A DNA stretch of 64,000 nucleotides, taken from the NCBI GenBank assembly GCA_040387855.1, contig JAZKCY010000001.1, forward strand, positions 445,857 to 509,856, read 5' to 3'. Origin of the DNA: Patescibacteria group bacterium (GTDB lineage: Bacteria; Patescibacteriota; Minisyncoccia; Phycocordibacterales; JAKAEA01). The notes beneath the pieces were generated by a model. That model made no database searches. It was not told where the DNA came from and worked only from the letters and a program-made list of their open reading frames with translations. Each line of letters starts with the position of its first letter. The stretch's first letter is position 1. Below, piece after piece: positions 6,792 to 56,583 of the stretch. Position numbers and translations under genes: made by a program.

Positions 6792-7691
6792 TTACCAGAG
6801 CTTGATGGTGAGGCCGACGCCGATTGCACCGTCGAACTCCCTCGAGTCCGACATGCTGGTGATGGGCGTGCCCATCTTCCACACGGGGAGATCCAGCGTG
6901 ATGCTGTCGGAGAGCTTCCACGCGACCCCGCCGCTGTAGAACAGCATGAGGCCCGAATCGAATCCGTAGAAGCCAGGGTCAGCTAGCACCGCGAGCCGGT
7001 GCTGAAAGCTGACGCTCTCGTTGACCTGCCAGATGTGGTTGACCCCCACCTGGACCTGGCCCTCGAACCCTTCGTTGGTCGCGTTCGCGGACAGGTAGGC
7101 CTCGGGCTTCAGGAAGGGCTTGATCGTGTGGCCGTTGCCCAGATCGAGATCTAGGCTCAGCTCGCCGTACATGTAGATCAAGTCGCCCTTGGTCCCGCTT
7201 AGAAGCCGGGGGGCGGCGAGATCGAAGTACGACACGCCAACGTTCACGTTGACGTCACGTACTTTGCCGACCCACCCGAGGGTGTAGTCGACCTCGTCCC
7301 CGAAATTGGAGTTGAGGTTGGCGTCGTCGAGCCCGGCGGAGTGCCAGAGATCGATGTAGACGCCGTTAGGGAACGTCACGAACACGTCGGACTGCAGCAC
7401 CGGATCGGTGTGGTAGACCGATCCGTTTGCCCCGTAGTACTGAGACCACAGACGGGTCGTCAGCACGACGGACGGGTGAGGGGCCCCTTTGAACACCTCA
7501 TCCGGCTTCCGCGGTTCGTCGGCCTTCTTCGGCGCGACGGTGGGGTCGGTGTGCTCATGCACTCCGCCGCCAGTCGACTTCTCGGTCTTGATCTGCTCGA
7601 ACCGCTCGAGCCCGTCGTTCTGGTTGCCGTTGCAACCCAACAGGAACGACAGGCCGAGCACCAACGCCGCAACGTACATTCGCGTACGCAT
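6792..7691 (-). CDS. Lipoprotein with outer-membrane beta-barrel-like features; GC-rich (about 60%)
   Basis: Signal peptide with lipobox LLGC, alternating hydrophobic beta-strand patterns (VNVNVGVSYFDL), and a C-terminus ending ...GVGLTIKLW with an aromatic terminal residue as in OMPs. GC is far above the window background. Confidence 0.5.
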   Translation of the reverse strand: MRTRMYVAALVLGLSFLLGCNGNQNDGLERFEQIKTEKSTGGGVHEHTDPTVAPKKADEPRKPDEVFKGAPHPSVVLTTRLWSQYYGANGSVYHTDPVLQSDVFVTFPNGVYIDLWHSAGLDDANLNSNFGDEVDYTLGWVGKVRDVNVNVGVSYFDLAAPRLLSGTKGDLIYMYGELSLDLDLGNGHTIKPFLKPEAYLSANATNEGFEGQVQVGVNHIWQVNESVSFQHRLAVLADPGFYGFDSGLMLFYSGGVAWKLSDSITLDLPVWKMGTPITSMSDSREFDGAIGVGLTIKLW

Positions 7692-7917
7692 AAACGATAC
7701 CTTCTCCCCACAAATGGGGCTTCCGAAACCATAGGGACATTACAAATCCGTTTGTGAAACTAACATAAATCTATAGATGAGTCAATAGTGCCATTCCCAT
7801 ATACGAAAAGGCCCACACAATCTAATGTGTGGCCTCTATTCCTTTCTTTTGTAAAAGGTTGTTTATTGAAACGAAAGAACGATGTAGTGCGTTGAACTTA
7901 CTAGGTTTCTTCTCTTC

Positions 7918-8475
7918 TTAGGCTTTTTCCATCGAGCGCCTGGCGCACAAGGCGAGGACTGTGAAGAATAGGATAGCCACAGCTCCGATCACGAGTACCC
8001 TAACTTGTACGGATGTCAAAATGACCTGAGTGCCGATGACGCTGGTGAGTAGGGTAAGCGGGACGACGAGTCCTGCCACCAACATCATCTTTCCAACTAA
8101 GCTCACGATCTTCATATCGTCTCCACGCGGGAATCCTCCGAGGAAGGTTCCTAACGTGAGGAATCCGAGCATGAGGCCGTAGTGGCCTGATGTGCGGATG
8201 AACATCTCCCACTGATAGTCGTACTGACCGACTATCCATGGAATGAAGACATGCAGAGCTGTGAAGACAAAGAATGTGCCATATAGGGCTTTCATCATCT
8301 TCGAGATAGCGGGGCGCATTCTCATCATCAGAGTGCTCGGCTGGCTTGCTTTTGACTCGGTTTCCTCAGCCGGTTTGAGCATGGCTCTTGTAGCAATTGC
8401 TGCTAGAACTAGCAGAAACGCCATAAAGGCCAAGCCGACGGTCATCGCCATCAAATTCTGATGCTCCTGACTCAT
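7918..8475 (-). CDS. Hypothetical integral membrane protein (about 5 TM); elevated GC
   Basis: Hydrophobic segments throughout; no recognised family. Confidence 0.4.
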   Translation of the reverse strand: MSQEHQNLMAMTVGLAFMAFLLVLAAIATRAMLKPAEETESKASQPSTLMMRMRPAISKMMKALYGTFFVFTALHVFIPWIVGQYDYQWEMFIRTSGHYGLMLGFLTLGTFLGGFPRGDDMKIVSLVGKMMLVAGLVVPLTLLTSVIGTQVILTSVQVRVLVIGAVAILFFTVLALCARRSMEKA

Positions 8476-14693: not shown

Positions 14694-14714
14694 TCTAAAG
14701 CTAGAAATAAGCAA

Positions 14715-14750
14715 TAAAAAAACCTTCAGAATATTCTGAAGGTTTTTTTA
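14715..14750. terminator. Bidirectional rho-independent terminator between rplI (+) and rpmA (-)
   Basis: A-run, then ACCTTCAGAA-TATT-CTGAAGGT, then T-run. Confidence 0.7.
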
Positions 14751-14761
14751 TGATTTCTTTA

Positions 14762-18554: not shown

Positions 18555-20051
18555 ATGAAAGTAATTACTACCAACGATTTAATAGGAGCAATACAGCCAC
18601 AGGCTAAGCTTGAAAAACAACTTAAAAATTTCGATCTTTCGTACCTTGCATCATTGGCACAAGATTATGTAGTGAATAAACCTATGGTAGAAATGCCAAA
18701 GGATATTCAGGCTGTTAAGACATACTCACGAAACCCAACACTTAAGCAGCGATCATTCTACAAGAAAGCTGAAATGGCAGGACGAGAACTCGTACGAGAA
18801 GGAAAGGTTGGTGCATTCCTTGTAGCAGGAGGACAGGGAACACGACTTGGATACGATGGACCAAAGGGAGAATATAGTGTTACACCAGTGAAGAACAAAT
18901 CTCTTTTCCAGGTATTTGCGGAACAGCTTCTTTCATATTCAAAGGAAGCAGGAAAGACTATCCCTTGGTATATCATGACAAGTGATATCAACCGAACAGC
19001 AACAGAAAAATTCTTCGTTGAAAACAAATATTTCGGTTACAACAAATCTGATATATTCTTCTTCGAACAAGGAATGATGCCTGCATTTGATATGACAACT
19101 GGTAAGCTTTTGCTCGCAGAGAAAGATAGTCTTGCTCTAAGTCCAGACGGACACGGAGGGTCTCTTAAAGCACTTCGCGTAAGTGGAGCACTAGCTGATA
19201 TGCAGAAACGAGGTATCGAACACCTATCATACTTCCAGGTAGACAACCCAATGGTGCATGCTATTGATTACCGATTCTTGGGAATGCACGCTCTTACCGA
19301 CAGTGAAATGAGTAGTAAAGTTGTGCCTAAGGTAAGTGCAACAGAAAAGGTAGGTAACTTCGTAGTTGCTGATGGCAAAGTACAGGTTATTGAATATTCT
19401 GATATGCCAGAAGAACTTGCAAAGACAACTAACTCAGATGGATCACTTAAATTCAATGCAGGATCAATTGCTATTCATGCTCTCTCAGTAAAATTTATCG
19501 AACGACTTACATCAGATGGAAACCTCAAGCTTCCATGGCACCGAGCAGAAAAGAAAGTTGCTTTCCTCGATGCTTCAGGAGCACTCGTGAAGCCAGAAAA
19601 GCCAAATGCAGTAAAGCTTGAACAATTTATTTTCGACGCACTTCCATTGGCACAAAATGCTTTGGTCTACGAAACAGATCGAGCAGAAGAATTTAGTCCA
19701 GTGAAGAATGCAGAAGGAAATGATTCACCACTTACCTCACGACAGCATCAGGTAGCCCGAGCACAGCGATGGCTTAAGGAATTGGGAGTAGAAGTACACC
19801 CAGAATCAGTTGTAGAAATCGATCCTTTGTTTGCAGCATCACGAGATCAGCTTAAAGCACGAAAGCTTGAAGTAGAACAGATTGTTGCAAGTGAAAAGAT
19901 TTATTTCGGACACACTGGAATCGAAAGTTCAGCAACACAACCAACAAGACTCCCTCTACCATTCGGAATGTTCAAAAAAGTTGGAGCTGTGTTTACAAAG
20001 TTTGCAAAGCGCGCACCGAAAGACACTGGAGCAGCAGGCGCACAAGCATAA
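18555..20051 (+). CDS. UDPGP-family nucleotide-sugar pyrophosphorylase (UDP-GlcNAc/UDP-glucose pyrophosphorylase-like)
   Basis: LVAGGQGTRLGYDGPKG is the UDPGP family signature; 498 aa. Confidence 0.7.
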   Translation: MKVITTNDLIGAIQPQAKLEKQLKNFDLSYLASLAQDYVVNKPMVEMPKDIQAVKTYSRNPTLKQRSFYKKAEMAGRELVREGKVGAFLVAGGQGTRLGYDGPKGEYSVTPVKNKSLFQVFAEQLLSYSKEAGKTIPWYIMTSDINRTATEKFFVENKYFGYNKSDIFFFEQGMMPAFDMTTGKLLLAEKDSLALSPDGHGGSLKALRVSGALADMQKRGIEHLSYFQVDNPMVHAIDYRFLGMHALTDSEMSSKVVPKVSATEKVGNFVVADGKVQVIEYSDMPEELAKTTNSDGSLKFNAGSIAIHALSVKFIERLTSDGNLKLPWHRAEKKVAFLDASGALVKPEKPNAVKLEQFIFDALPLAQNALVYETDRAEEFSPVKNAEGNDSPLTSRQHQVARAQRWLKELGVEVHPESVVEIDPLFAASRDQLKARKLEVEQIVASEKIYFGHTGIESSATQPTRLPLPFGMFKKVGAVFTKFAKRAPKDTGAAGAQA

Positions 20052-20073
20052 TTACATTTATCTACACTATACA

Positions 20074-20106
20074 AAAAACCACTGAGTGATGTCGGTGGTT
20101 TTTTGT
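20074..20106 (+). terminator. Rho-independent terminator
   Basis: AACCACTGAGTGATGTCGGTGGTT plus TTTTTG. Confidence 0.7.
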
Positions 20107-20159
20107 TTGCAATAAAAAATGTTCGTTACCGAGAAGGCAACGAACAATGTCATTCTAAA

Positions 20160-20567
20160 CTACGTCAGATTCCATGCGGCAGCTGCTTCGAATGGCTCCA
20201 GCTTCTTTAAGAGCTCTGGGATATCGCGTGCCACTGCTTCGAGCATCTGAGGCAAGTGTGTGAACACCAACTCCACATACTCACGCGCGATAGTTGGATT
20301 GTTGTTCTTTGTCGACGTTAAGAACAACTCGTTTGCTCCGTGGTGGCAGCTGATTGCTGCGTACCTAGCTCCAGGTTCGAAATACACAGACCAGTACAGA
20401 GTGCCTGTCGTGTATTTGTAGCTGCAACGCTCGGTTCCTGGAAGCTCTAGGAGTAGCCCCATGAGTATCTTTGACGTTGAGCCGATCCGGTACTTCATGA
20501 TGTCGAGGGCGTTAGAACCATCGATCATGACACTCATCAGCTGTTTGCCGTTCATCTTGCTGTGCAT
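20160..20567 (-). CDS. Hypothetical protein; GC-rich islet
   Basis: 135-aa ORF, GC about 50%; no family recognised. Confidence 0.35.
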   Translation of the reverse strand: MHSKMNGKQLMSVMIDGSNALDIMKYRIGSTSKILMGLLLELPGTERCSYKYTTGTLYWSVYFEPGARYAAISCHHGANELFLTSTKNNNPTIAREYVELVFTHLPQMLEAVARDIPELLKKLEPFEAAAAWNLT

Positions 20568-20714
20568 CGTACTCCTTATCTCTAAGGACCCTCTCGGGGA
20601 AGATGAGTGAACACGTTGCCCACAACACTCTTCTGATTGGTAGAGTATTGCAGAGACAATTATTAGTCAAATAAAAAAGCACACTCCTACATCGTAGGAC
20701 TGTGCTGTGGTGAA

Positions 20715-21374
20715 CTATCGTGGCGCATGCTTTACTCCGCCGTACTTGCTCGTAACGAAGGTCACCCAGGATGGATGATCGACATCTCGATCGGCAGCGA
20801 TCCATGCATCGTACCACCGCTGACACAAGGGACTTAGAATTTGTCCGTAGTTTTGGACCCACGGAACCATTCCGTACTCGGAAGTCTTTCCCCAGGTCAG
20901 CCGCTCGTACTCGATGAGAGCTGGGATGTCGCCGGGTGCGCAATCGGTCCAGCCGTTTGCGAGATGATCGAGCTCATGAAGCACACCCATGACGATCACT
21001 GATTGCCACATTGCATCACAGTTGATCCCATCCAACTTCTGCCTGATTGCATACTGTCGTTCAAGGGCAGGCATGTACAAATCGATGATGGGGATTCCGT
21101 TTCGTGCTGTGTTGGACATGCTGATCATCTTCTGATCACCAGCATAGGCCGGATGGTCAACGGCTATCACCTTGAGGTCGATGGGCCTTCCGTAGCACCT
21201 GCTGATCGTCAGGCGGTGGGAATCGAATCGCCGCTGAATCAGCTCGAGCGGGTAGGTGCACGAGATCAGCAGGTTGAGGATGGGCCCGATCCTCTGGTTG
21301 TAGAAATCCAACAACGCTGGGGGGAACACTTGTTCAGACATAGGATGCTTGCACTTTCTTTTTGGGAGTGACAT
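20715..21374 (-). CDS. Hypothetical protein with HExxH motif (possible zinc metallopeptidase-like); GC-rich islet; start uncertain
   Basis: VIVMGVLHELDHLANGW contains HELDH. The ORF track start at 21434 is probably too long; Met candidates at 21374 and 21341. Confidence 0.35.
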   Translation of the reverse strand: MSLPKRKCKHPMSEQVFPPALLDFYNQRIGPILNLLISCTYPLELIQRRFDSHRLTISRCYGRPIDLKVIAVDHPAYAGDQKMISMSNTARNGIPIIDLYMPALERQYAIRQKLDGINCDAMWQSVIVMGVLHELDHLANGWTDCAPGDIPALIEYERLTWGKTSEYGMVPWVQNYGQILSPLCQRWYDAWIAADRDVDHPSWVTFVTSKYGGVKHAPR

Positions 21375-36230: not shown

Positions 36231-37211
36231 GTGGTCAAACCAACAGATATGGACACTCTCGAATACATAGCAACAAAGATAGATACCATTGAATTTCCTA
36301 AACGAAAGGCCCTTTCTTCACGCTATCCACAGCTTAAAGGCCCAATTTTAGCTCTAAAACGGGCATACTACTCCCTAGGCTATTCTTTAGGTACAGCGAG
36401 TGCAAACAAGCATTCTGATCGATTTTTCCCCGCAATTATAGCTCGAGGTTCTTCGGTGTTAATGCGAAAGCTTGGAGACTCTGATCTTGAACTACAGAAA
36501 CAAAAAATTACCAATTTAAAGTTGGCCGCAGAAAAGCTTAATGGCTTGATTATTGAGCCCGGAGCTACTTTTTCATTTTGGAATACTCTAGGCAATCCAT
36601 CACTCAAAAATGGATATGTAGAGGGAATGCTTTTGTCGGAAGGTAAAGTAGTGCGTGGAGTAGGAGGTGGTCTTTGCCAAATGTCTAATTTGCTTTTCTG
36701 GATGTTTTTACATGCACCTGTGGAAATAGTAGAACGCTTCCATCATTCTCGAGATTCATTTCCTGATAGTGGAAGAACACTACCTTTTGGAAGTGGAGCA
36801 ACCGTTTTTTACAATCTCATAGATCTAAAAATTAAAAATACTTCTGATCAACCAATTCAGTTAAAGATTTGGCTTACAGATACACAGCTCAAAGGACAGA
36901 TTCTCGCACCAATGCCTGAAAAGCAAAAATTTCATATTCATGAAAAAGATCATAGCTTCATAAAGAAAGGGGAGAAGTACTATCGATATAATGAGTTATG
37001 GAGAGACGTTCTTGTAAAAGGTACCCTTATAGAATCAAAAAAAATCTACACAAACTTTGCTCCAATAATGTATGAAGTAGATGAGAAATATATAACAGAA
37101 AGAAATATTCAACTTATAGATTTGGATCTCGAAAATAAAAAAGAAAATAAAAATAATTTAGAAGAAAATAAATCTATAGGATATCCACACCTCATAACTG
37201 TAGGGACTTGA
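36231..37211 (+). CDS. VanW family protein
   Basis: GGGLCQMSNLLFWMFLHAPVEIVERFHHS matches the VanW core (GGGVCQ.S..L). Confidence 0.65.
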   Translation: MVKPTDMDTLEYIATKIDTIEFPKRKALSSRYPQLKGPILALKRAYYSLGYSLGTASANKHSDRFFPAIIARGSSVLMRKLGDSDLELQKQKITNLKLAAEKLNGLIIEPGATFSFWNTLGNPSLKNGYVEGMLLSEGKVVRGVGGGLCQMSNLLFWMFLHAPVEIVERFHHSRDSFPDSGRTLPFGSGATVFYNLIDLKIKNTSDQPIQLKIWLTDTQLKGQILAPMPEKQKFHIHEKDHSFIKKGEKYYRYNELWRDVLVKGTLIESKKIYTNFAPIMYEVDEKYITERNIQLIDLDLENKKENKNNLEENKSIGYPHLITVGT

Positions 37212-37264
37212 TACCCCACTAGAGGGTAGGGGGGAGAGAGGAGAGGGTGACACCCCTTCTCTTT
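37205..37264 (+). repeat. Direct repeat copy 1 (attL-like), overlaps the last two codons and stop of the VanW-like gene
   Basis: GACTTGATACCCCACTAGAGGGTAGGGGGGAGAGAGGAGAGGGTGACACCCCTTCTCTTT; about 88% identical to the copy at 38812..38870. Confidence 0.8.
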
Positions 37265-37294
37265 TTACATTCGGAAGCATCTATTGCATCCCTA

Positions 37295-37310
37295 AAATCT
37301 GCTGATGTAT
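37295..37310. repeat. Left 16-bp inverted repeat AAATCTGCTGATGTAT
   Basis: Perfect reverse complement of 37733..37748; the pair flanks the ORF 37442..37720. Confidence 0.8.
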
Positions 37311-37441
37311 ATTATTTAATAATATCTATGACCGCTTAATAGTTTTCTCGCGACAGTTGATCTACTCATGACTAAGAGTTCAATCCACGATCTTTGTCTC
37401 TCGATAAGCCACTAGTGAGCTTTTTAAGTCAATTTTATTTA

Positions 37442-37720
37442 CTAACTACTGAATCCAAAACTTTTTAATGAAGTATGATCGTCAGGAGGGTTGGAACCCT
37501 TCATAATAATTTCCCCATAACTAGTTTCATACGACTTAACTTGTTTTATGATTAAATTTCTAAGTCTTTTAGCATGAATAGGAGAGAGCAAAAATTGCTC
37601 GGCAGAGTTTCCGGTAATTGTTTGTAAATAAAAATTCATTTCATCAAACAAAACAGCTGCACCACTAAGCCCCTTAGTAATTGGACTAAGAGGAATACTA
37701 GTAACTTTATTTTTTTCCAT
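37442..37720 (-). CDS. Hypothetical 92-aa protein inside the IR-bounded segment
   Basis: ORF start lies 12 bp from the right IR; no family recognised. Confidence 0.35.
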   Translation of the reverse strand: MEKNKVTSIPLSPITKGLSGAAVLFDEMNFYLQTITGNSAEQFLLSPIHAKRLRNLIIKQVKSYETSYGEIIMKGSNPPDDHTSLKSFGFSS

Positions 37721-37732
37721 ATATTTTCACTA

Positions 37733-37748
37733 ATACATCAGCAGATTT
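37733..37748. repeat. Right 16-bp inverted repeat ATACATCAGCAGATTT
   Basis: Perfect reverse complement of 37295..37310. Confidence 0.8.
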
Positions 37749-37885
37749 CAAGGAAGCAAGTTCTGCTGTAATTATAAATCCGAATTTTAATATTAATATC
37801 TTGTGCTTCTTGGATATGTGTGTCGGGGTTTATAACAGAGAATTGGGCTTCTCCACATAAGGTATAATGCATAAAACTAAAAACA

Positions 37886-38776
37886 ATGCCTATACCTAAT
37901 GAATATATTCTCGATTATATCAACTCTAAGGAGAGAGGAGTGAATACTCGACGAAATTATTTAATATGGTTAAATAAATTATCATCATTAATCGAGAAAG
38001 AAATAGATTTGTTCACCGAAAAAGATTATGAGGATATCGGAAATTATCTACTAAAATCAAATTCTTTAGCATATGTATCGTCCTTAATGTGGCAATTACA
38101 AAACATATTAGCATATTTAAGAAATCGAGATATCGTTAAAATCGATTTATATAAGCTTAATAAGTTTACAAATAATTATGCACCAAATATAACAGAACAG
38201 ATTATTTCTCCAGAGGAGTATGAAAAGATTCTTGATTATATAATGGATAAAGAGGAAGTGACTGATAACAGCAAGCGTATTAAAATTAGAAATGAATTGA
38301 TAATACGTATTTTGTGGGATACTGGAATTACAGTAACAGAAGTAATTAATTTGAGATTAAAGAATATTGATTTTGAAAAAAGATACATAATTATTGGTGA
38401 ACTAAATCCCAGAAGATTAGCATTATCAATGAAGACCATAGAAACAGCAAAATCATATAAAAAGCTTTTAGGTCTAGAAAATCAAAATGCTCCATTTATT
38501 CAAAATTTTGTAAAAAAGAGTTTTGATAAAAAATTCAGTGCAAGATCAATTCAAAGGTTTCTAAAGGATATAACTCAGGAATGTAAAATTGAAAGTGTAG
38601 TTACACCAAATTCATTTAGACATACTAAAGCTGTAATGCTCCTAAAGAAGGGAAGTCCACCAGATCAAGTAATGAAAATACTAGGGGTTAATGATTTTGA
38701 AAGTATATCTAAGTATATTGATATTATAAATGGAAAAAATATTGAGGTAAAAGTTTTAGGTCAAGAATATTTGTAA
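37886..38776 (+). CDS. Tyrosine site-specific recombinase (phage integrase / XerD-like family)
   Basis: N-terminal SAM-like domain, and a catalytic domain with R...HTKAVMLL...ILGVNDFESISKYI (R-H-R-Y type residues with terminal Tyr in SKYID). A TATAAT -10 lies about 30 bp upstream. Confidence 0.7.
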   Translation: MPIPNEYILDYINSKERGVNTRRNYLIWLNKLSSLIEKEIDLFTEKDYEDIGNYLLKSNSLAYVSSLMWQLQNILAYLRNRDIVKIDLYKLNKFTNNYAPNITEQIISPEEYEKILDYIMDKEEVTDNSKRIKIRNELIIRILWDTGITVTEVINLRLKNIDFEKRYIIIGELNPRRLALSMKTIETAKSYKKLLGLENQNAPFIQNFVKKSFDKKFSARSIQRFLKDITQECKIESVVTPNSFRHTKAVMLLKKGSPPDQVMKILGVNDFESISKYIDIINGKNIEVKVLGQEYL

Positions 38777-38811
38777 GAAAACTCATCTTAGTGATCAAAA
38801 TACTGACCAGA

Positions 38812-38870
38812 GACTTAATACCCCACTAGAGGGTAGGGGGGGAGAGAAGGGAGTAACACCCCTTCTCTTT
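38812..38870 (+). repeat. Direct repeat copy 2 (attR-like), immediately after the recombinase stop
   Basis: GACTTAATACCCCACTAGAGGGTAGGGGGGGAGAGAAGGGAGTAACACCCCTTCTCTTT. Carries G7 where copy 1 has G6. Confidence 0.8.
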
Positions 38871-39259
38871 TCTTTTTTATTTTTTCACCTACATGGAAAT
38901 ATGAGATCATAAAACCAAAAATAGAAATAAAATATTTTCTATAAATAATTGGTAGAGAAGTTACATTAAGTTCAACATTAAGATGAAGATTAAGAACATT
39001 AAGACGCCTGTGGATAACTTTTGAGGGGACCCCTCTTAATGTTCATATAAGGGTCGCACAATATATCTTTTACGACTCATATATACAAATAAGCTCTATA
39101 TATAGATATATTTTGCCTCTATATAAAGGACCTGCCTGTGGCTTCTTATGTACATATCAATGTATATACTAGTATCTATAATTACATATACAACAAGACT
39201 CAAGAATTTTGCTCTTGAGTCTCCCCTGATCTTTATTTTGATTTTTTAGGCTTCTTAGA

Positions 39260-39499
39260 TTATGTTGTTTTGATTATCTTTTCGTATCGTTCAATTTGAT
39301 CTTCATTGGCGTATTTTTCTATGTCACGTTCGAAGATCTCTTTAGCCACAGATCTATGTACCTCAAACTTTTCACCGAGCTGGCCCCAAGTCCATTTCTT
39401 TGGGTCCTTAATGCGGTGCTGTACGATTTGTTCGTTTCGATGCTCCTTAGGAAGGTATACCATGTCCTCTATTTTATTGAACTCCCTACACCTATGCAA
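39260..39499 (-). CDS. Hypothetical small protein (possible HTH)
   Basis: KWTWGQLGEKFEVHRSVAKEIFER is HTH-like; no family recognised. Confidence 0.3.
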   Translation of the reverse strand: MHRCREFNKIEDMVYLPKEHRNEQIVQHRIKDPKKWTWGQLGEKFEVHRSVAKEIFERDIEKYANEDQIERYEKIIKTT

Positions 39500-39669
39500 G
39501 GGATAACTATTTTTTGTAAAAATTATGGAGAAATTCTTGGGACCGTTAGATAGAAATAAAGTTTCAATGACTACTGTATCATTGAAAAATTTGAAGTCCC
39601 TACACTTGTGTGTGATACATGACTATATATGACAGTAAGAGGAATAGTTGAAATAAAAAAGCTCACGAA

Positions 39670-39864
39670 CTACGAAGATTTCGATGAGCGTTTGGATGTG
39701 CGTTTGTTTTTTGCACGCTTTGGTTTGTGCAGCTTTTTTAGCTTTGAGTAATTTAGCGCTGGTCCTTGTGGAGACCTGCGATCACTCAATTGGCCTTGAA
39801 GCCGACGGACCTTAGCAATAGCATCTTTTGTGAGCATAGAGACCTCCTCATAAAAGTATAGCAC
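39670..39864 (-). CDS. Hypothetical small basic protein
   Basis: Lys/Arg-rich C-terminus; not matched to any ribosomal protein I know. Confidence 0.25.
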   Translation of the reverse strand: MLYFYEEVSMLTKDAIAKVRRLQGQLSDRRSPQGPALNYSKLKKLHKPKRAKNKRTSKRSSKSS

Positions 39865-39915
39865 AGGTATGTTTCACAACTTTATTAACACTAGTACCTT
39901 GCAATACAAAGTACT

Positions 39916-40290
39916 ATGGTGTATGGTATACCTATGAACAAAGAATCAATGAGCAAGGACTCCCCTTTGGAGAATTCCCGATCGCAAATGCGCAAAGGTA
40001 TTTTGGAGTTTTGTATATTATTAATTATCGCCCGTGGTCGTATTTATTCTTCTGAAATTTTGCTCCAGCTCAAGGATGCAGATTTGCTGGTAGTGGAGGG
40101 GACTCTCTATCCCCTGCTCAGTCGCCTAAAGACTCAAGGCTTGCTCGAACATTCATGGGAAGAATCAAAGTCTGGTCCCCCACGAAAATATTTTACCCTT
40201 ACAAATAAAGGCCACGATACATTGAAAGAACTGAAAGCTACATGGAAAATTCTCTCAGCTTCTATACACTCACTCATTAACAATAAATAA
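39916..40290 (+). CDS. PadR family transcriptional regulator
   Basis: ILEFCILLIIARGRIYSSEILLQLKD...EGTLYPLLSRLKTQGLLEHSWEES is the PadR winged-helix signature. Confidence 0.8.
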   Translation: MVYGIPMNKESMSKDSPLENSRSQMRKGILEFCILLIIARGRIYSSEILLQLKDADLLVVEGTLYPLLSRLKTQGLLEHSWEESKSGPPRKYFTLTNKGHDTLKELKATWKILSASIHSLINNK

Positions 40291-40291
40291 T

Positions 40292-41980
40292 ATGAAAAAA
40301 GCTTTAACAATAACTATAGCCGGTACCCTCTTTACTATTGAGGAAGATGCATATCAAAAACTTGATGTGTATTTAAAATCTATTCAAAATTATTTTGGTA
40401 CAAGTGCTGAGGGTAAAGAAATTATAGAAGACATTGAGGCACGAATTGCCGAACAGCTTTTAGAAAATAAAACGGTTGCTGGTGTTGTTACTATTGAAGC
40501 TATCGAAAAGCTCATGACAACGATGGGAAGTGTTGAAGACTTTGGTGACAAGCCAGAATCTACAGGTACAGCATCGGAGAGTTCTAATGAAGACCCTACA
40601 GCGTCACGAAAGCTGTACAGAGATACTGATGATGTGGTGATTGCTGGTGTTGCTTCAGGTATCGCACACTATATAAAAGTTGATCCGCTCTTTGTTCGTC
40701 TTGGATTTATTGTCCTCACACTTATCACTTCTGGATTTTGGATTGTACTCTATATAATTCTTGCACTCATTGTTCCTAAAGCAGAAACAGCAGCAGAAAA
40801 AATGCAGCAGCGAGGAGGACCTGTTACCCTATCTTCATTTAAAGAAACGATAAAGAAAAATAGCGAGGAGTATATGCAGCGGTCATCAAAGCTTCGCACA
40901 ATACTAGAAAGACTTATCAGAGTATTTGGAAAGATTGTTGTAGTGTTTGTTAAAATTATTATAGGTTTAATTGCTATTAGTCTTATTGCTGGTGCATTAT
41001 TTGGATTAATTACTGCAACATTTACCTATGCCAATCTTATCTTCAATAGTAATTCTACGTATGTAGGGTTCCCTATAACAGAAGTTATTGGAGGACTGGC
41101 CCTCTTTGGATTGTCTACATTCTATTTTATTGCTGTAGCAATTCCACTTATTGTTATTGCGCTTTTGGGAGTAATGATGATTCGCCGAAAGAAAGTAGTT
41201 GGTATGCGATCAAGCGCTATCTTAGCTGGTGTGTGGGCATTGTCATTAATTATGGCTGGTACACTTTCAGTTAAATATATTCCACAAATTCATGATCATC
41301 TTGAGTCAATGCCAGAGAATCAAAGAGTAACTGAAACTCAGGCTATTACTCAGCCTTTTACCAAGCTCGATCTTAATGGATTTGAAAAAGTAAAATTTGT
41401 TCAAGCATCTACAACCTCAATTGTAGAAGAAGGACGTCGTGCTGATGTAGATGAGACAAAGTTTGAAGTGAAAGATGGAACACTTACTTTACAACGAGAT
41501 ATTCAAAATGAGTTTTGCTTGTTCTGTGATCGGGATAGTGTCGACATTATTATTTCTGCACCATTTGTAGATCGAATAGATATTACAGATAATATTCGTT
41601 TTCAAAGTGATGATATTCGTGGGGAAAAAGTGACTGTCGTAGTAGAAGATGTAGCACGAGCTGATATGAAAGTAGATGTTCGAGAATTAGTAGTTATAAC
41701 GCAGGGAGTTGCACGTGCTCATATTACAGGAACTTCAACATCGATGGGACTAACTCTAGAAGATGCTTCTCGTTTTGAAGGTGATACTATGAATGTGAGA
41801 GATGCATCTGTTAAGGCTTCTGGAGTTTCTCGTGCGTACGTACATGTAGATGCAACTCTCCATATTGATGCAGAGGATGTAAGCAGAGTTGAATACACTG
41901 GTACAGCAGAACCCACAATCATAGATAGTGATAATGCAAGAGTTGAACGAATGGATGCTGTAGAAGCTAGAACTGATTAA
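40292..41980 (+). CDS. PspC domain membrane protein with C-terminal DUF4097/DUF2807-like (adhesin-head-like beta) domain
   Basis: DVVIAGVASGIAHYIKVDPLFVRLGFIVLTL is the PspC domain. Multiple TM segments, and a C-terminal repetitive beta-rich region (VDVRELVVITQGVARAHITG...). This is the classic PadR-PspC-DUF4097 gene order. Confidence 0.6.
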   Translation: MKKALTITIAGTLFTIEEDAYQKLDVYLKSIQNYFGTSAEGKEIIEDIEARIAEQLLENKTVAGVVTIEAIEKLMTTMGSVEDFGDKPESTGTASESSNEDPTASRKLYRDTDDVVIAGVASGIAHYIKVDPLFVRLGFIVLTLITSGFWIVLYIILALIVPKAETAAEKMQQRGGPVTLSSFKETIKKNSEEYMQRSSKLRTILERLIRVFGKIVVVFVKIIIGLIAISLIAGALFGLITATFTYANLIFNSNSTYVGFPITEVIGGLALFGLSTFYFIAVAIPLIVIALLGVMMIRRKKVVGMRSSAILAGVWALSLIMAGTLSVKYIPQIHDHLESMPENQRVTETQAITQPFTKLDLNGFEKVKFVQASTTSIVEEGRRADVDETKFEVKDGTLTLQRDIQNEFCLFCDRDSVDIIISAPFVDRIDITDNIRFQSDDIRGEKVTVVVEDVARADMKVDVRELVVITQGVARAHITGTSTSMGLTLEDASRFEGDTMNVRDASVKASGVSRAYVHVDATLHIDAEDVSRVEYTGTAEPTIIDSDNARVERMDAVEARTD

Positions 41981-48798: not shown

Positions 48799-49074
48799 GT
48801 GAAGGATAGCACCTCAAAATGGATGGCTGTAACGGGTGCAATGGGGGTTTCATTTTTCCTCATCGCAAACTTTACCTCCATCTTCCATGGATCAGCTGTA
48901 ATTGCTGGAATGATTCAACTCTGTGTGAATGCATGTGTCTTCTTAGTTTGGACCAAAGCTTTTAGAAACAGGTCTGGAAAAAGAAGATGGTTTGCATTCT
49001 GCGGAGTTATCTTTCCAGTGATCATGGCAAGCATTACTATATGCCGAGTACTGCTTCCCTGGATGTCCAAGTAA
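48799..49074 (+). CDS. Hypothetical small membrane protein
   Basis: Three hydrophobic segments; no family recognised. Confidence 0.4.
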   Translation: MKDSTSKWMAVTGAMGVSFFLIANFTSIFHGSAVIAGMIQLCVNACVFLVWTKAFRNRSGKRRWFAFCGVIFPVIMASITICRVLLPWMSK

Positions 49075-49106
49075 GGCATTCGCTCTTTAGAAACTCAAAC
49101 TGAGGA

Positions 49107-49460
49107 TTGGTCATGAAAACCAAATCGTTCGTGTTGGCGCCTCATCAGGTGAACTCCGGTACGGGCCAGACCATGATCAACCAGTGGCTCGCTGAACAGC
49201 AGCTCAAGATCACCAGCGTTCAGCTCACCGAGTTCAACGGTGATCTCATCGTGATCCTGATCTACAAGCCGCGCCTGACGCCGGCCAGGAACTTCGTCGA
49301 GGTGATGTCGTTCTCGATGGCCACGGTCAACGCGTACCAAATCGACACGAAGGTCGAGGCGGTCCAGCGCGAAAAGGGTGAATTTCACCACATCGAGTCC
49401 ATCGCCTTCAACGGCGAGCTCGTCATGGTGCTGCAGTACTCGAGAGTTGTTCCTCGTTAA
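49107..49460 (+). CDS. Hypothetical small protein with two ~35-aa internal repeats (DUF4177-like?); GC-rich islet
   Basis: The repeats end in ...FNGDLIVILIYKPR and ...FNGELVMVLQYSR. Confidence 0.4.
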   Translation: MVMKTKSFVLAPHQVNSGTGQTMINQWLAEQQLKITSVQLTEFNGDLIVILIYKPRLTPARNFVEVMSFSMATVNAYQIDTKVEAVQREKGEFHHIESIAFNGELVMVLQYSRVVPR

Positions 49461-49545
49461 ACAAGCAACAAGGTTTATGCATACCATTGAATGCATACGG
49501 TGCCAACGACGTTACTTGGCTGCTCTCGAGATGTAGTCTCGACTG

Positions 49546-49968
49546 ATGAGTCCAACAGGACGAAAGCAGAGTTTAGACCCGTTCTTTTATTTCAAGTGTT
49601 TCAGGAAAGGTAGGCATCGCGTGCCCGCAACGGATACGAACAAGAAGCAGACTGCTTCTCGCCCGAAGACCGACCGATATGGTATCGTGCTCGGTCAACC
49701 GCATCCCGATTTCGAGCAGGTCCGAGACCTGGCTCGGGAGCTCGGTGTGAAGATCGAGCAGGACGGCAAGCTGTGGACCATGACCGGATTCGACCGGAAG
49801 GTCTGCTACTACGCGCACAACCGGTGCGTTCGGCTCGAAAACGATGAGATGGGAAACCGCGAGGGAGACTTCGCGATCGCCATCACGCTGGTCCTGACGG
49901 GCAAGTACCCGCTGACCAACGACGAGCTGCGTCTCAGCCGCACGATCCGCCACATGCTCTACAAGTAG
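49546..49968 (+). CDS. Hypothetical protein; GC-rich islet
   Basis: 140-aa ORF followed by a hairpin plus T-run at about 49980-50003. Confidence 0.35.
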   Translation: MSPTGRKQSLDPFFYFKCFRKGRHRVPATDTNKKQTASRPKTDRYGIVLGQPHPDFEQVRDLARELGVKIEQDGKLWTMTGFDRKVCYYAHNRCVRLENDEMGNREGDFAIAITLVLTGKYPLTNDELRLSRTIRHMLYK

Positions 49969-50124
49969 TAGAATCTGACCAAGGTATGTACAACCTTTTT
50001 TGTACACGGTTTCGGAGTGCCGTTTCACTCCTACCCCCGCGCTTAATTGTGCGGGGTTTCGTTTTATATACACTTGATTTTGAGATAACGCTGTGTAGTA
50101 TGCTTAAGAGAGGAGGCTTGCCCA

Positions 50125-56259: not shown

Positions 56260-56583
56260 CCTCGTACGAGCTATGGGACTGACACGACGGTGTCTCGAGA
56301 AACCCTATCACCAAGTATTATGCTCGTCAACAAAAATCACAGCAGCTTACCTGGGGGAAAGCTGCTGTGATTTGGTTGGGATTATTGAGTTGTTTTATTG
56401 TGAGAGAGTAAGTTTCCAAAGGTTTTCTGGAAATGATACGTTCTGCTTTTTACCGATACTGAAGAGAGTTGAAAAGAATTTTTTGATATCAAACATATGT
56501 TGTTTAATTAAGTATGTAATGTGAACTACATTCATCTTACCTATACAACATTAATAACGCATGAATCTGCTTTTTCTTACAAC

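What the first reader, a model, noticed from the sequence alone, without database searches (positions are those of the whole stretch)
37295..37748. Perfect 16-bp inverted repeats flank a small ORF next to a tyrosine recombinase: candidate invertible switch
AAATCTGCTGATGTAT (37295-37310) and its exact reverse complement (37733-37748) bracket a 422-bp segment containing the minus-strand 92-aa ORF. The ORF's start lies only 12 bp inside the right IR, so any promoter must sit outside the IRs, in the 37749-37885 region shared divergently with the recombinase. Inversion would therefore uncouple the ORF from that promoter, an ON/OFF geometry like Fim-type or Bacteroides-type invertons. Alternatively, the IRs could be arm-type recombinase binding sites or the ends of a MITE. 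I do not know of such a switch described for this kind of organism.
Basis: partly seen in the sequence, partly recalled or inferred. Interest (0 to 1): 0.7.

Follow-up and report, generated by a model that had tools for sequence, protein, structure and literature searches.

The report
Inverted repeats beside a crippled recombinase
A small gene in a Patescibacteria genome is flanked by a real, non-random pair of inverted repeats next to a recombinase gene, the layout of a flip-switch, but the recombinase lacks most of its catalytic residues and no second orientation could be found, so an active switch is unproven and rather unlikely.

Summary
AAATCTGCTGATGTAT (37295-37310) and its exact reverse complement (37733-37748) exist and extend to 24/27 nt. 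They enclose 422 bp holding a 92-aa minus-strand ORF, a weak DUF3467 match, whose ATG lies 12 bp inside the right arm. Only 2 of 200 shuffled windows give so long a perfect repeat. The divergent neighbour (37886-38776) is a true two-domain tyrosine recombinase by Pfam and a confident AlphaFold model.

1. The recombinase is an orphan, at most 28% identical to anything among 1.8 billion representatives. It has replaced Arg-I (T149), the hairpin Lys (N174), His-II (N242) and His-III (V268), yet keeps every other highly conserved column.
2. The two-gene unit is AT-shifted and bracketed by 64-nt direct repeats at the VanW terminator, so it looks like an inserted cassette.
3. Neither gene nor either repeat occurs anywhere else searchable, so orientation variants could not be tested.

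Best reading (about 0.4): an inverton-type cassette whose recombinase-family protein now mainly binds its two sites, leaving it locked or regulatory. An active switch scores about 0.15. Rivals are an att-flanked mini-element, an mRNA 5'-3' stem, and a MITE or chance. Interest is modest.

The parts
37284..37310 (.). Left inverted-repeat arm (perfect 16-nt core 37295-37310; 27-nt arm matching 24/27)
   Evidence: (I1)
37733..37759 (.). Right inverted-repeat arm (perfect core 37733-37748; 27-nt arm). It overlaps the -35 of the best promoter-like site for orf92.
37311..37732 (.). 422-bp segment enclosed by the repeat cores. It contains all of orf92 plus 131 nt of its 3' region, with no plus-strand ORF of 40 aa or more.
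37442..37720 (-). orf92: 92 aa, pI 9.0, no signal peptide. Coding-like only in this frame. Weak partial match to DUF3467. An orphan.
   Evidence: (PF11950, E = 2e-4, 21.7 bits, below the cut-off of 25)
37723..37776 (-). Candidate orf92 promoters. P1 is TTGAAA (37751-37746), 17 nt, GAAAAT (37728-37723), and straddles the right arm. P2 is a perfect -10 TATAAT at 37776-37771, outside the arm.
   Evidence: consensus matches only
37863..37868 (+). Perfect -10 TATAAT, 17 nt upstream of the recombinase ATG
   Evidence: read; consensus match only
37886..38776 (+). Simple (core-binding plus catalytic domain) tyrosine-recombinase-family protein, 296 aa. It is an orphan with 27% GC. Arg-I is T149, the hairpin Lys is N174, His-II is N242 and His-III is V268. 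Arg-II (R245) and Tyr (Y277) are kept.
37202..37265 (+). Left copy of the 64-nt direct repeat. It overlaps the VanW stop codon and carries a degenerate terminator hairpin.
   Evidence: (D2, D3)
38809..38871 (+). Right copy of the direct repeat, 33 nt after the recombinase stop. It is the better intrinsic terminator (17-pair stem and a long T run).
36231..37211 (+). VanW-family gene whose 3' end and terminator form the left boundary of the unit

Best explanation
The two arms are most likely the paired cognate DNA sites of the neighbouring tyrosine-recombinase-family protein. That makes this an inverton-type cassette: site, then a 422-bp segment carrying a DUF3467-like gene, then site, with the recombinase gene next door and both promoters in the shared divergent spacer. 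The cassette sits on a 1.67-kb, compositionally foreign two-gene unit that is bracketed by 64-nt direct repeats at the VanW terminator.

The protein keeps the whole recombinase fold, Arg-II and the tyrosine nucleophile. It has replaced Arg-I, the beta-hairpin lysine, His-II and His-III. I therefore think that today it mainly binds, and perhaps synapses, the two sites. On this reading the segment stays in the present, promoter-coupled orientation, and orf92 and the protein's own promoter are probably repressed. Flipping at an appreciable rate seems unlikely.

Shown: the repeats and their non-randomness, the genes, the fold, the substitutions and their specificity, the foreign composition, and the uniqueness of the unit.

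Inferred: that the protein binds the repeats, and that the outcome is locking or regulation rather than inversion.
For: - The repeat is real and non-random. Only 2 of 200 shuffles reach 16 nt, it extends to 24/27 nt, and it is the only long-range repeat of this size in the window.
- It lies within 140 bp of the only tyrosine recombinase gene in 64 kb. That adjacency makes a functional or historical link much more likely than coincidence.
- The protein is a bona fide two-domain recombinase. PF00589 matches at E = 2.4e-21. The AlphaFold model has pLDDT 88.4 and pTM 0.80. The best Foldseek matches are XerA, Tn1549 Int, IntI4, XerH and Cre.
- It has no arm-binding domain. Such 'simple' recombinases act on simple core sites (PMC8138268).
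- Four catalytic positions are replaced. In 146 nearest relatives, Arg-I is R in 127, the Lys is K in 82, His-II is H in 128 and His-III is H in 131. Here they are T149, N174, N242 and V268.
- The loss is specific to the active site. Among columns conserved at 80% or more, 3 of 5 catalytic ones are lost and 0 of 13 non-catalytic ones (Fisher p = 0.012). This argues against random pseudogene decay and for a retained fold and DNA-binding role.
- The ORF is intact and coding-like only in its own frame.
- The right arm overlaps the best promoter-like site of orf92, so a bound protein would be placed to repress it.
- The unit looks foreign. The recombinase has GC 0.272 against 0.374 +/- 0.024 for 24 reference genes. 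Both proteins are orphans. In a relative whose VanW is 56% identical, VanW and the PadR-PspC operon are separated by one small gene.
Against: - There is no binding or orientation data of any kind.
- There are no relatives, so neither conservation nor covariation of the sites can be examined.
- The arms show only weak internal dyad symmetry. The best arrangement is 11-8-11 with 8/11 matches at the right end and 7/10 at the left, no better than expected by chance. A clear core-site structure is therefore not demonstrated.
- The direct repeats, rather than the inverted repeats, could be the protein's real sites.
- Retention of both Arg-II and the Tyr nucleophile may mean residual or non-canonical chemistry. 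CTnDOT integrase works without a canonical Arg-I (PMC8138268).
- Repurposing of a dead tyrosine recombinase as a regulator has little precedent, to my knowledge.
- Two of the three arm mismatches become G.U pairs on the sense transcript, which hints at an RNA-level role instead.
Confidence: 0.4

Rival explanations
1. Active phase-variable inverton. The adjacent recombinase, or another one acting in trans, inverts 37311-37732 by crossing over within the identical core. This couples or uncouples orf92 from the promoter at the right junction.
For: - The architecture and repeat length are typical of invertons.
- The perfect 16-nt core is preserved, although the enzyme's catalytic substitutions must be old.
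- A flip changes the -35 TTGAAA to CTAAAA.
- The Tyr nucleophile and Arg-II are retained.
- There is precedent for a relocated Arg-I in CTnDOT integrase.
- Xer-like simple recombinases do run whole-gene inversion switches in Mycoplasma (PMC2268961).
Against: - Four of the six catalytic residues are replaced, including Arg-I and the hairpin Lys. From my own knowledge, single Arg-I substitutions are the standard way of inactivating these enzymes.
- The promoter scores of the two states differ little, 9/12 against 8/12.
- The segment carries a whole ORF and no alternative ORF to switch to.
- More than 75% of known invertons are shorter than 300 nt.
- No second orientation could be found, because no other copy exists in any searchable collection.
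Confidence: 0.15
2. Minimal integrated element. The 64-nt direct repeats are attL and attR left by site-specific insertion of a 1.6-kb circle (orf92 plus integrase) into the VanW terminator. The inverted repeats are then internal features, such as operators or remnants, and not recombination sites.
For: - The direct repeats bracket exactly the two-gene unit. They match at 57/64 positions with an identical 24-nt core, and chance predicts 0 copies of that core.
- The integrase gene abuts one repeat, which is typical of integrated elements.
- The right copy, with its flank, is the better terminator and the left copy is degenerate. This is as expected if the original VanW terminator now lies at attR.
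- The recombinase gene has low GC.
- The unit fills a lineage-specific gap between VanW and PadR.
Against: - Simple recombinases are rare as integrases of mobile elements (27 of 437 phages and 12 of 223 ICEs).
- The repeat core has only a 5-bp dyad and does not look like a core site.
- No empty site and no second copy of the element exists anywhere searched.
- The repeats contain terminator hairpins, so they could be duplicated for that function.
- The same catalytic defects apply.
- This reading leaves the non-random inverted repeat unexplained.
Confidence: 0.15
3. RNA-level element. A transcript starting at the outside promoter (-10 at 37776-37771) contains both arms. They pair as a 27-bp 5'-3' stem enclosing the whole orf92 message. 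This would occlude the start region 12 nt away or create an RNase III-type processing site. The recombinase would then be irrelevant.
For: - No terminator is predicted between the orf92 stop and the left arm.
- The long-range stem dominates the predicted fold, although that follows trivially from the repeat.
- On the sense strand, 2 of the 3 arm mismatches become G.U wobbles, giving 26/27 paired positions. On the antisense strand none do (derived).
Against: - The wobble argument rests on two transitions, with p of about 0.25.
- The best-scoring promoter lies inside or over the right arm and would exclude it from the RNA.
- There is no Rfam match.
- This reading does not explain the adjacency to the recombinase gene.
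Confidence: 0.1
4. The ends of a MITE or IS remnant, or a chance repeat.
For: Terminal inverted repeats of 16-27 nt are typical of IS and MITE ends. The genome outside the window could not be searched, because it is absent from genome contigs.
Against: - No target-site duplication flanks either the 16-nt or the 27-nt boundaries.
- No further copy, exact or degenerate, exists in 64 kb.
- The repeats enclose a coding-like ORF that is not a transposase.
- Chance is disfavoured by the shuffles and by the adjacency to the only recombinase gene.
Confidence: 0.05

Closest known systems
Invertons (E. coli fimS with FimB/FimE; Bacteroides and Clostridioides invertible promoters)
   Same: Short inverted repeats of about 9-30 nt bound a few hundred bp. 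A tyrosine recombinase of the simple two-domain type is often encoded next door. Orientation decides whether a promoter and a gene are coupled.
   Different: In those systems the invertible piece carries the promoter and the gene lies outside. Here the piece carries the whole gene, and the promoter lies at or outside the junction. Most known invertons are shorter than 300 nt (PMC11602134). Their recombinases have the canonical catalytic set. None is reported from Patescibacteria in the searchable literature. Inversion is not demonstrated here.
Mycoplasma agalactiae vpma locus with Xer1 (also the vsp and vsa loci)
   Same: A Xer-like simple tyrosine recombinase encoded beside the locus moves whole genes relative to a fixed outside promoter, by inversion between short sites (PMC2268961). 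The host genome is small and reduced.
   Different: That locus holds a family of several alternative surface-lipoprotein genes, each with a recombination site. Here there is one non-surface gene, no paralogue and no alternative ORF. Xer1 is catalytically canonical.
Acinetobacter dif modules (genes flanked by inversely oriented 28-bp pdif XerC/XerD sites)
   Same: A discrete small gene module is bounded by inverted copies of a recombinase site of about 28 nt (PMC6449649). The arm length here is 27 nt.
   Different: pdif sites have a clear 11-6-11 palindromic structure and are recombined by the host XerC/XerD. They occur in many copies on plasmids. Here the internal dyad is weak, the copy is single, and the unit is chromosomal with its own recombinase-like gene.
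Small integrated elements with attL/attR direct repeats and an integrase next to one end
   Same: 64-nt direct repeats bracket the unit. The integrase gene abuts one repeat. The composition is foreign. The insertion is at the 3' end and terminator of a gene.
   Different: The unit is only 1.67 kb with one cargo gene. The recombinase is simple, with no arm-binding domain and no Xis. No empty site or second copy is known.
CTnDOT integrase (IntDOT) and the IntDes subgroup: tyrosine recombinases with non-canonical catalytic sets
   Same: The canonical Arg-I is absent (S in IntDOT, T here). In IntDes, His-II is replaced (PMC8138268).
   Different: IntDOT lacks only Arg-I and supplies it from another position. 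The protein here lacks Arg-I, the hairpin Lys, His-II and His-III together, and is unrelated to those subgroups (no more than 28% identity to anything).

Membership tests
Tyrosine recombinase superfamily (PF00589) | Catalytic-domain fold preceded by a core-binding domain | tested here: met
   PF00589 matches at E = 2.4e-21 and 76.7 bits, above the cut-off of 27.1. The AlphaFold model has pLDDT 88.4. Foldseek gives probability 1.00 to XerA, Tn1549 Int, IntI4, XerH, Cre and lambda Int.
Tyrosine recombinase superfamily (PF00589) | Catalytic set R-K-H-R-H/W plus the Tyr nucleophile | tested here: not met
   Only Arg-II (R245) and Tyr (Y277) are present. Arg-I is T149, the Lys is N174, His-II is N242 and His-III is V268. 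The loss is specific to catalytic columns.
Inverton / DNA-inversion phase switch | A pair of inverted repeats bounding a short segment, beyond chance | tested here: met
   The core is 16/16 and the arms 24/27, 422 bp apart. Only 2 of 200 shuffles reach this length.
Inverton / DNA-inversion phase switch | Both orientations present in a population | not testable with these tools
   No reads are available. The source genome and its proteins are absent from the contig index and from the genome and metagenome collections.
Inverton / DNA-inversion phase switch | A catalytically competent site-specific recombinase | tested here: inconclusive
   A recombinase-fold protein is adjacent, but four of its six catalytic residues are replaced. 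A trans-acting enzyme elsewhere in the genome cannot be excluded, although there is only one recombinase gene in this window.
Inverton / DNA-inversion phase switch | Orientation changes promoter-gene coupling | tested here: inconclusive
   A simulated flip changes the -35 TTGAAA to CTAAAA and drops the best promoter score from 9/12 to 8/12. These are consensus matches only.
Xer chromosome-dimer resolvase (XerC/D/A/S/H) | Score above the family cut-off, with conserved orthologues in related genomes | tested here: not met
   XerA scores 94.8 bits against a cut-off of 220, XerD 75.5 against 329.6, and XerC 69.2 against 335. The best relative among 1.84 billion representatives is 28% identical.
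Integron (IntI plus attI and attC cassettes) | IntI-type integrase above the cut-off, and attC-type imperfect palindromes of 57-141 nt at cassette ends | tested here: not met
   The integron integrase model scores 58.5 bits against 265. The repeat arms are 422 bp apart and enclose the ORF, rather than forming a compact attC.
Integrated element with att direct repeats | Direct repeats bracketing an integrase-containing, compositionally distinct segment | tested here: met
   The repeats at 37202-37265 and 38809-38871 match at 57/64 positions. The recombinase GC is 4 SD below the reference genes.
Integrated element with att direct repeats | An empty target site or an excised form seen elsewhere | tested here: inconclusive
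   The closest VanW is only 64% identical, so no DNA-level relative exists. The repeat core has no hit in the viral or metagenome collections.
MITE / IS | Multiple copies, target-site duplications, or a transposase | tested here: not met
   There is no other copy in the window, no flanking duplication and no transposase. The rest of the genome could not be searched.
DUF3467 (PF11950), for orf92 | Score at or above the Pfam gathering threshold | tested here: not met
   The score is 21.7 bits against a cut-off of 25, and only profile positions 60-90 of 92 are matched. This is a resemblance, not membership. The single-sequence model was too poor to test the fold.

The most novel reading that the evidence does not exclude
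This would be the first DNA-inversion phase switch in Patescibacteria (CPR). It would be run by a tyrosine recombinase that works with only Arg-II and Tyr of the canonical catalytic set, and it would flip a whole DUF3467-like gene relative to a junction promoter. The switch would sit on a 1.7-kb self-contained cassette that can itself insert at a terminator.
Probability: 0.1. Interest if true: 0.7.

Novelty: new member of a known kind. Interest (0 to 1): 0.35.

Why it matters
If the segment really flips, it would show programmed phase variation in an ultra-small episymbiotic lineage where none is described. It would also reveal a tyrosine recombinase active site far outside the known range.

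If the protein only binds, which I think more likely, it is an example of a recombinase fold kept for DNA recognition after loss of catalysis. About 7% of its nearest relatives show the same correlated loss in independent lineages. That recurrence may deserve a systematic look.

As it stands, this is a single orphan locus with no comparative or read support. It is a lead for one cheap read-mapping test, not a discovery.

Tried and rejected
1. Searching for relatives of either protein. The word-indexed search of 5.8 billion proteins returned only the proteins themselves, plus one 25%-identical recombinase. Exhaustive HMMER over 1.84 billion representatives gave nothing above 28% identity and 75 bits. 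tblastn of orf92 against phages and plasmids gave nothing. blastn of the unit against phages gave nothing.

2. Looking up the encoding contigs, in order to see Logan assemblies and possible contig breaks at the repeats. The proteins are not on record.

3. Copy number and mobility of the repeats.
- The 16-mer in viral contigs gave only single chance hits.
- The 21-nt arm pattern gave 12 single hits in the genome collection and 11 in the metagenome collection, all in unrelated organisms.
- The direct-repeat core gave 0 hits in the viral and metagenome collections.
- One apparent second arm, in seven viral loci, lies inside a single large ORF of one virus family and was dismissed as coincidence.

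4. Synteny through VanW homologues. The closest is 64% identical and sits on contigs of about 2 kb. A 56%-identical relative shows VanW next to PadR-PspC. This is useful only as a weak hint that the intervening 2.7 kb is lineage-specific.

5. The long C-terminal tail of VanW as a sign of insertion. Rejected, because tails vary among homologues.

6. Structure of orf92. The single-sequence model had pLDDT 57 and the Foldseek matches were meaningless.

7. Integron, Xer and arm-type-site readings. Rejected on scores and domain content.

8. Internal dyad symmetry of the arms as proof of a core site. It was not better than chance.

9. Rfam, at gathering threshold and at E-value up to 1. Nothing credible.

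10. A clade of active-site-degenerate relatives. They do not cluster with this protein or with each other.

Full report
**Observation**

AAATCTGCTGATGTAT lies at 37295-37310 and its exact reverse complement at 37733-37748. The repeat finder extends the arms outward to 27 nt, 37284-37310 and 37733-37759, with 24/27 complementary positions. No other exact copy exists in the 64-kb window, and the three matches with 3 mismatches are at chance level.

The arms enclose 422 bp. A 92-codon ORF lies on the minus strand at 37442-37720, and its ATG is 12 bp from the right arm.

In 200 Markov shuffles of the window, only 2 produced any perfect inverted repeat of 16 nt or more within 1 kb. In the real window this is the only long-range repeat of that size. 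The other perfect repeats of 15 nt or more are short-loop hairpins.

The repeat lies within 140 bp of the only tyrosine recombinase gene in the window. Coincidence is therefore a poor explanation.

**The organism and the genes**

Both proteins are annotated in a Patescibacteria MAG as MES2436897 and MES2436898, on a contig of 981,549 bp.

orf92 scores as coding only in its own frame (+0.13 bits per codon, all other frames negative). It has a weak, sub-threshold match to the C-terminal third of DUF3467 (21.7 bits against a cut-off of 25). It has no paralogue in the window and no relative in any database tried. Its single-sequence structure model was too poor to use.

The divergent neighbour at 37886-38776 is a genuine tyrosine-recombinase-fold protein:
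- PF00589 matches at E = 2.4e-21.
- The AlphaFold model has pLDDT 88.4 and pTM 0.80.
- The top Foldseek matches are XerA, Tn1549 integrase, IntI4, XerH, Cre and lambda Int.
- It has only core-binding and catalytic domains, so it is a 'simple' recombinase in the sense of PMC8138268.
- Its best curated models are Xer families, but at a quarter to a half of their cut-offs. It is not the housekeeping Xer.

**The recombinase is an orphan with a remodelled active site**

An exhaustive HMMER search of 1.84 billion representatives found nothing closer than 28% identity and 75 bits.

Three alignments agree on the catalytic positions. They are the alignment to solved XerA structures, to the 26 best relatives and to 146 relatives.

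| Position | Residue here | In 146 relatives |
|---|---|---|
| Arg-I | T149 | R in 127 |
| Hairpin Lys | N174 | K in 82 |
| His-II | N242 | H in 128 |
| Arg-II | R245 (kept) | R in 145 |
| His-III | V268 | H in 131 |
| Tyr nucleophile | Y277 (kept) | Y in 144 |

Among columns conserved at 80% or more, 3 of 5 catalytic ones are lost and 0 of 13 non-catalytic ones (Fisher p = 0.012). This looks like selective loss of chemistry with a retained fold, not random decay.

About ten of the 146 relatives show a similar correlated loss. They do not form a clade with this protein or with each other.

The one well-studied exception I could document is CTnDOT integrase. It lacks only Arg-I and supplies it from another position (PMC8138268). 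From my own knowledge, single Arg-I substitutions are the usual way to inactivate these enzymes. I therefore put the chance that this protein still catalyses recombination at about 15%.

**A second layer of repeats**

A 64-nt direct repeat, 37202-37265 and 38809-38871, brackets exactly orf92 plus the recombinase gene. The two copies match at 57/64 positions and share an identical 24-nt core, for which chance predicts no copies.

The left copy overlaps the VanW stop codon and forms a degenerate hairpin. The right copy, 33 nt after the recombinase stop, is a much better intrinsic terminator.

The recombinase gene has 27% GC, against 37.4 +/- 2.4% for 24 reference genes.

In a relative whose VanW is 56% identical, VanW and the PadR-PspC operon are separated by a single small gene. 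Here they are 2.7 kb apart.

Together these points suggest that the two-gene unit is an inserted cassette. Whether the direct repeats are att sites cannot be decided. Simple recombinases are rare as integrases of mobile elements, the repeat core has only a 5-bp dyad, and no empty site or second copy exists anywhere searchable.

**Promoters and the effect of a flip**

The best sigma-70-like match for orf92 straddles the right arm: TTGAAA at 37751-37746, 17 nt, then GAAAAT at 37728-37723. A perfect TATAAT lies outside the arm at 37776-37771 on the minus strand. Another lies at 37863-37868 on the plus strand, ahead of the recombinase gene (and reading).

Simulating inversion within the core turns the -35 into CTAAAA and lowers the best promoter score from 9/12 to 8/12. 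It places orf92 just downstream of the VanW terminator. The geometry is compatible with a switch, but the predicted contrast is modest. There is no alternative ORF to switch to.

**What could not be tested**

The source genome is absent from genome contigs, and its proteins are absent from the contig index. Neither genome-wide copy number nor alternative assemblies could be examined.

Scans of the viral, genome and metagenome collections with the arm gave only single chance matches. Scans with the direct-repeat core gave none at all. No reads are available.

**Interpretation**

The most economical reading links the repeat to its neighbour. On that reading, the arms are the paired sites of the recombinase-family protein, in an inverton-type layout.

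Given the active site, I think the protein now mainly binds, and perhaps bridges, the two sites. The segment would then be locked in the present orientation, and orf92 and the protein's own promoter would probably be repressed (confidence 0.4).

The rivals are:
- An active switch, about 0.15.
- A mini integrated element whose direct repeats are the true sites, about 0.15.
- An RNA 5'-3' stem, about 0.1. Two of the three arm mismatches become G.U pairs on the sense strand only, which is weak evidence.
- A MITE or chance, about 0.05.

**Comparison with known systems**

It works most like invertons, and especially like the Mycoplasma Xer1/vpma type, where whole genes move relative to a fixed promoter (PMC2268961). 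Its arm length recalls Acinetobacter dif modules (PMC6449649).

It fails the tests for Xer, integron, MITE and, strictly, for a catalytically canonical tyrosine recombinase. The defining test for an inverton, two orientations in a population, could not be run. No inverton from Patescibacteria appears in the searchable literature.

**Verdict**

The locus is an orphan with no comparative support. One read-mapping experiment would settle the main question.

Noticed in passing
window 37202-37265 and 38809-38871: A 64-nt direct repeat (57/64 matching, identical 24-nt core ATACCCCACTAGAGGGTAGGGGGG) brackets orf92 plus the recombinase gene. The right copy is a strong intrinsic terminator and the left copy is a degenerate one that overlaps the VanW stop codon.
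   Followed up: yes
window 38962-39043: An iteron-like cluster of five AACATTAAG motifs (four direct, one inverted) within 82 bp, just right of the right direct repeat. The window-wide density of this motif is about one per 4.4 kb. It could be a binding array or an origin-like element.
   Followed up: partly
window 39478-39491 (-), 39592-39605 (-), 37198-37211 (+): The motif GTGTAGGGASTTCA occurs twice, 114 nt apart, upstream of a small HTH-like ORF. A copy with 2 mismatches lies in the opposite orientation at the VanW stop codon. It could be an operator, or the ends of a larger 2.4-kb element.
   Followed up: partly
window 39260-39460 (-) and 39670-39837 (-): Two small unannotated-looking minus-strand ORFs lie between the unit and PadR. 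One is a 66-aa HTH-like protein with only a weak spurious Pfam match. The other is a 55-aa very basic protein with a strong GAGGAGG ribosome-binding site, divergent from PadR.
   Followed up: partly
window 37284-37310 and 37733-37759, read as RNA on the minus strand: Two of the three mismatches between the arms are transitions that become G.U wobble pairs on the orf92 sense transcript, giving 26/27 paired positions. None do so on the antisense strand. This is a weak hint of selection on an RNA stem.
   Followed up: partly
window 37739-37768: A local 11-8-11 dyad, CAGCAGAACTT-GCTTCCTT-GAAATCTGCTG, lies at the right arm, with a weaker equivalent at the left arm (AGCATCTATT-GCATCCCT-AAAATCTGCT). 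The layout resembles a recombinase core site but is not statistically better than chance, and the two 8-bp 'spacers' differ at 2 positions.
   Followed up: yes
proteins P0132, P0155, P0194, P0198, P0205, P0211, P0219, P0221, P0257, P0264 (relatives, not in the window): About 7% of the 146 nearest Xer-like relatives independently show the same correlated replacement of Arg-I, His-II and His-III while keeping Arg-II and Tyr. This may be a recurrent class of recombinase-fold proteins with altered or lost chemistry.
   Followed up: partly
window 7001-8000, 20001-21000, 49001-50000: High-GC islands (56%, 50% and 54%) in a 37% GC window. ORFs there have no Pfam match, among them a lipoprotein-like 299-aa ORF at 6792-7691 (-), and there is no Rfam or tRNA hit. 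They may be foreign genes.
   Followed up: partly
window 36231-41980 compared with locus L133: VanW and the PadR-PspC/DUF2807 operon are neighbours both here and in a relative whose VanW is 56% identical, but in opposite relative orientation. A rearrangement breakpoint therefore coincides with the recombinase unit.
   Followed up: partly
window 14714-14751 and 56334-56373: A perfect 19-nt zero-loop palindrome and a 15-nt hairpin with a 10-nt loop. These are the only other perfect inverted repeats of 15 nt or more, and they are probably terminators.
   Followed up: no
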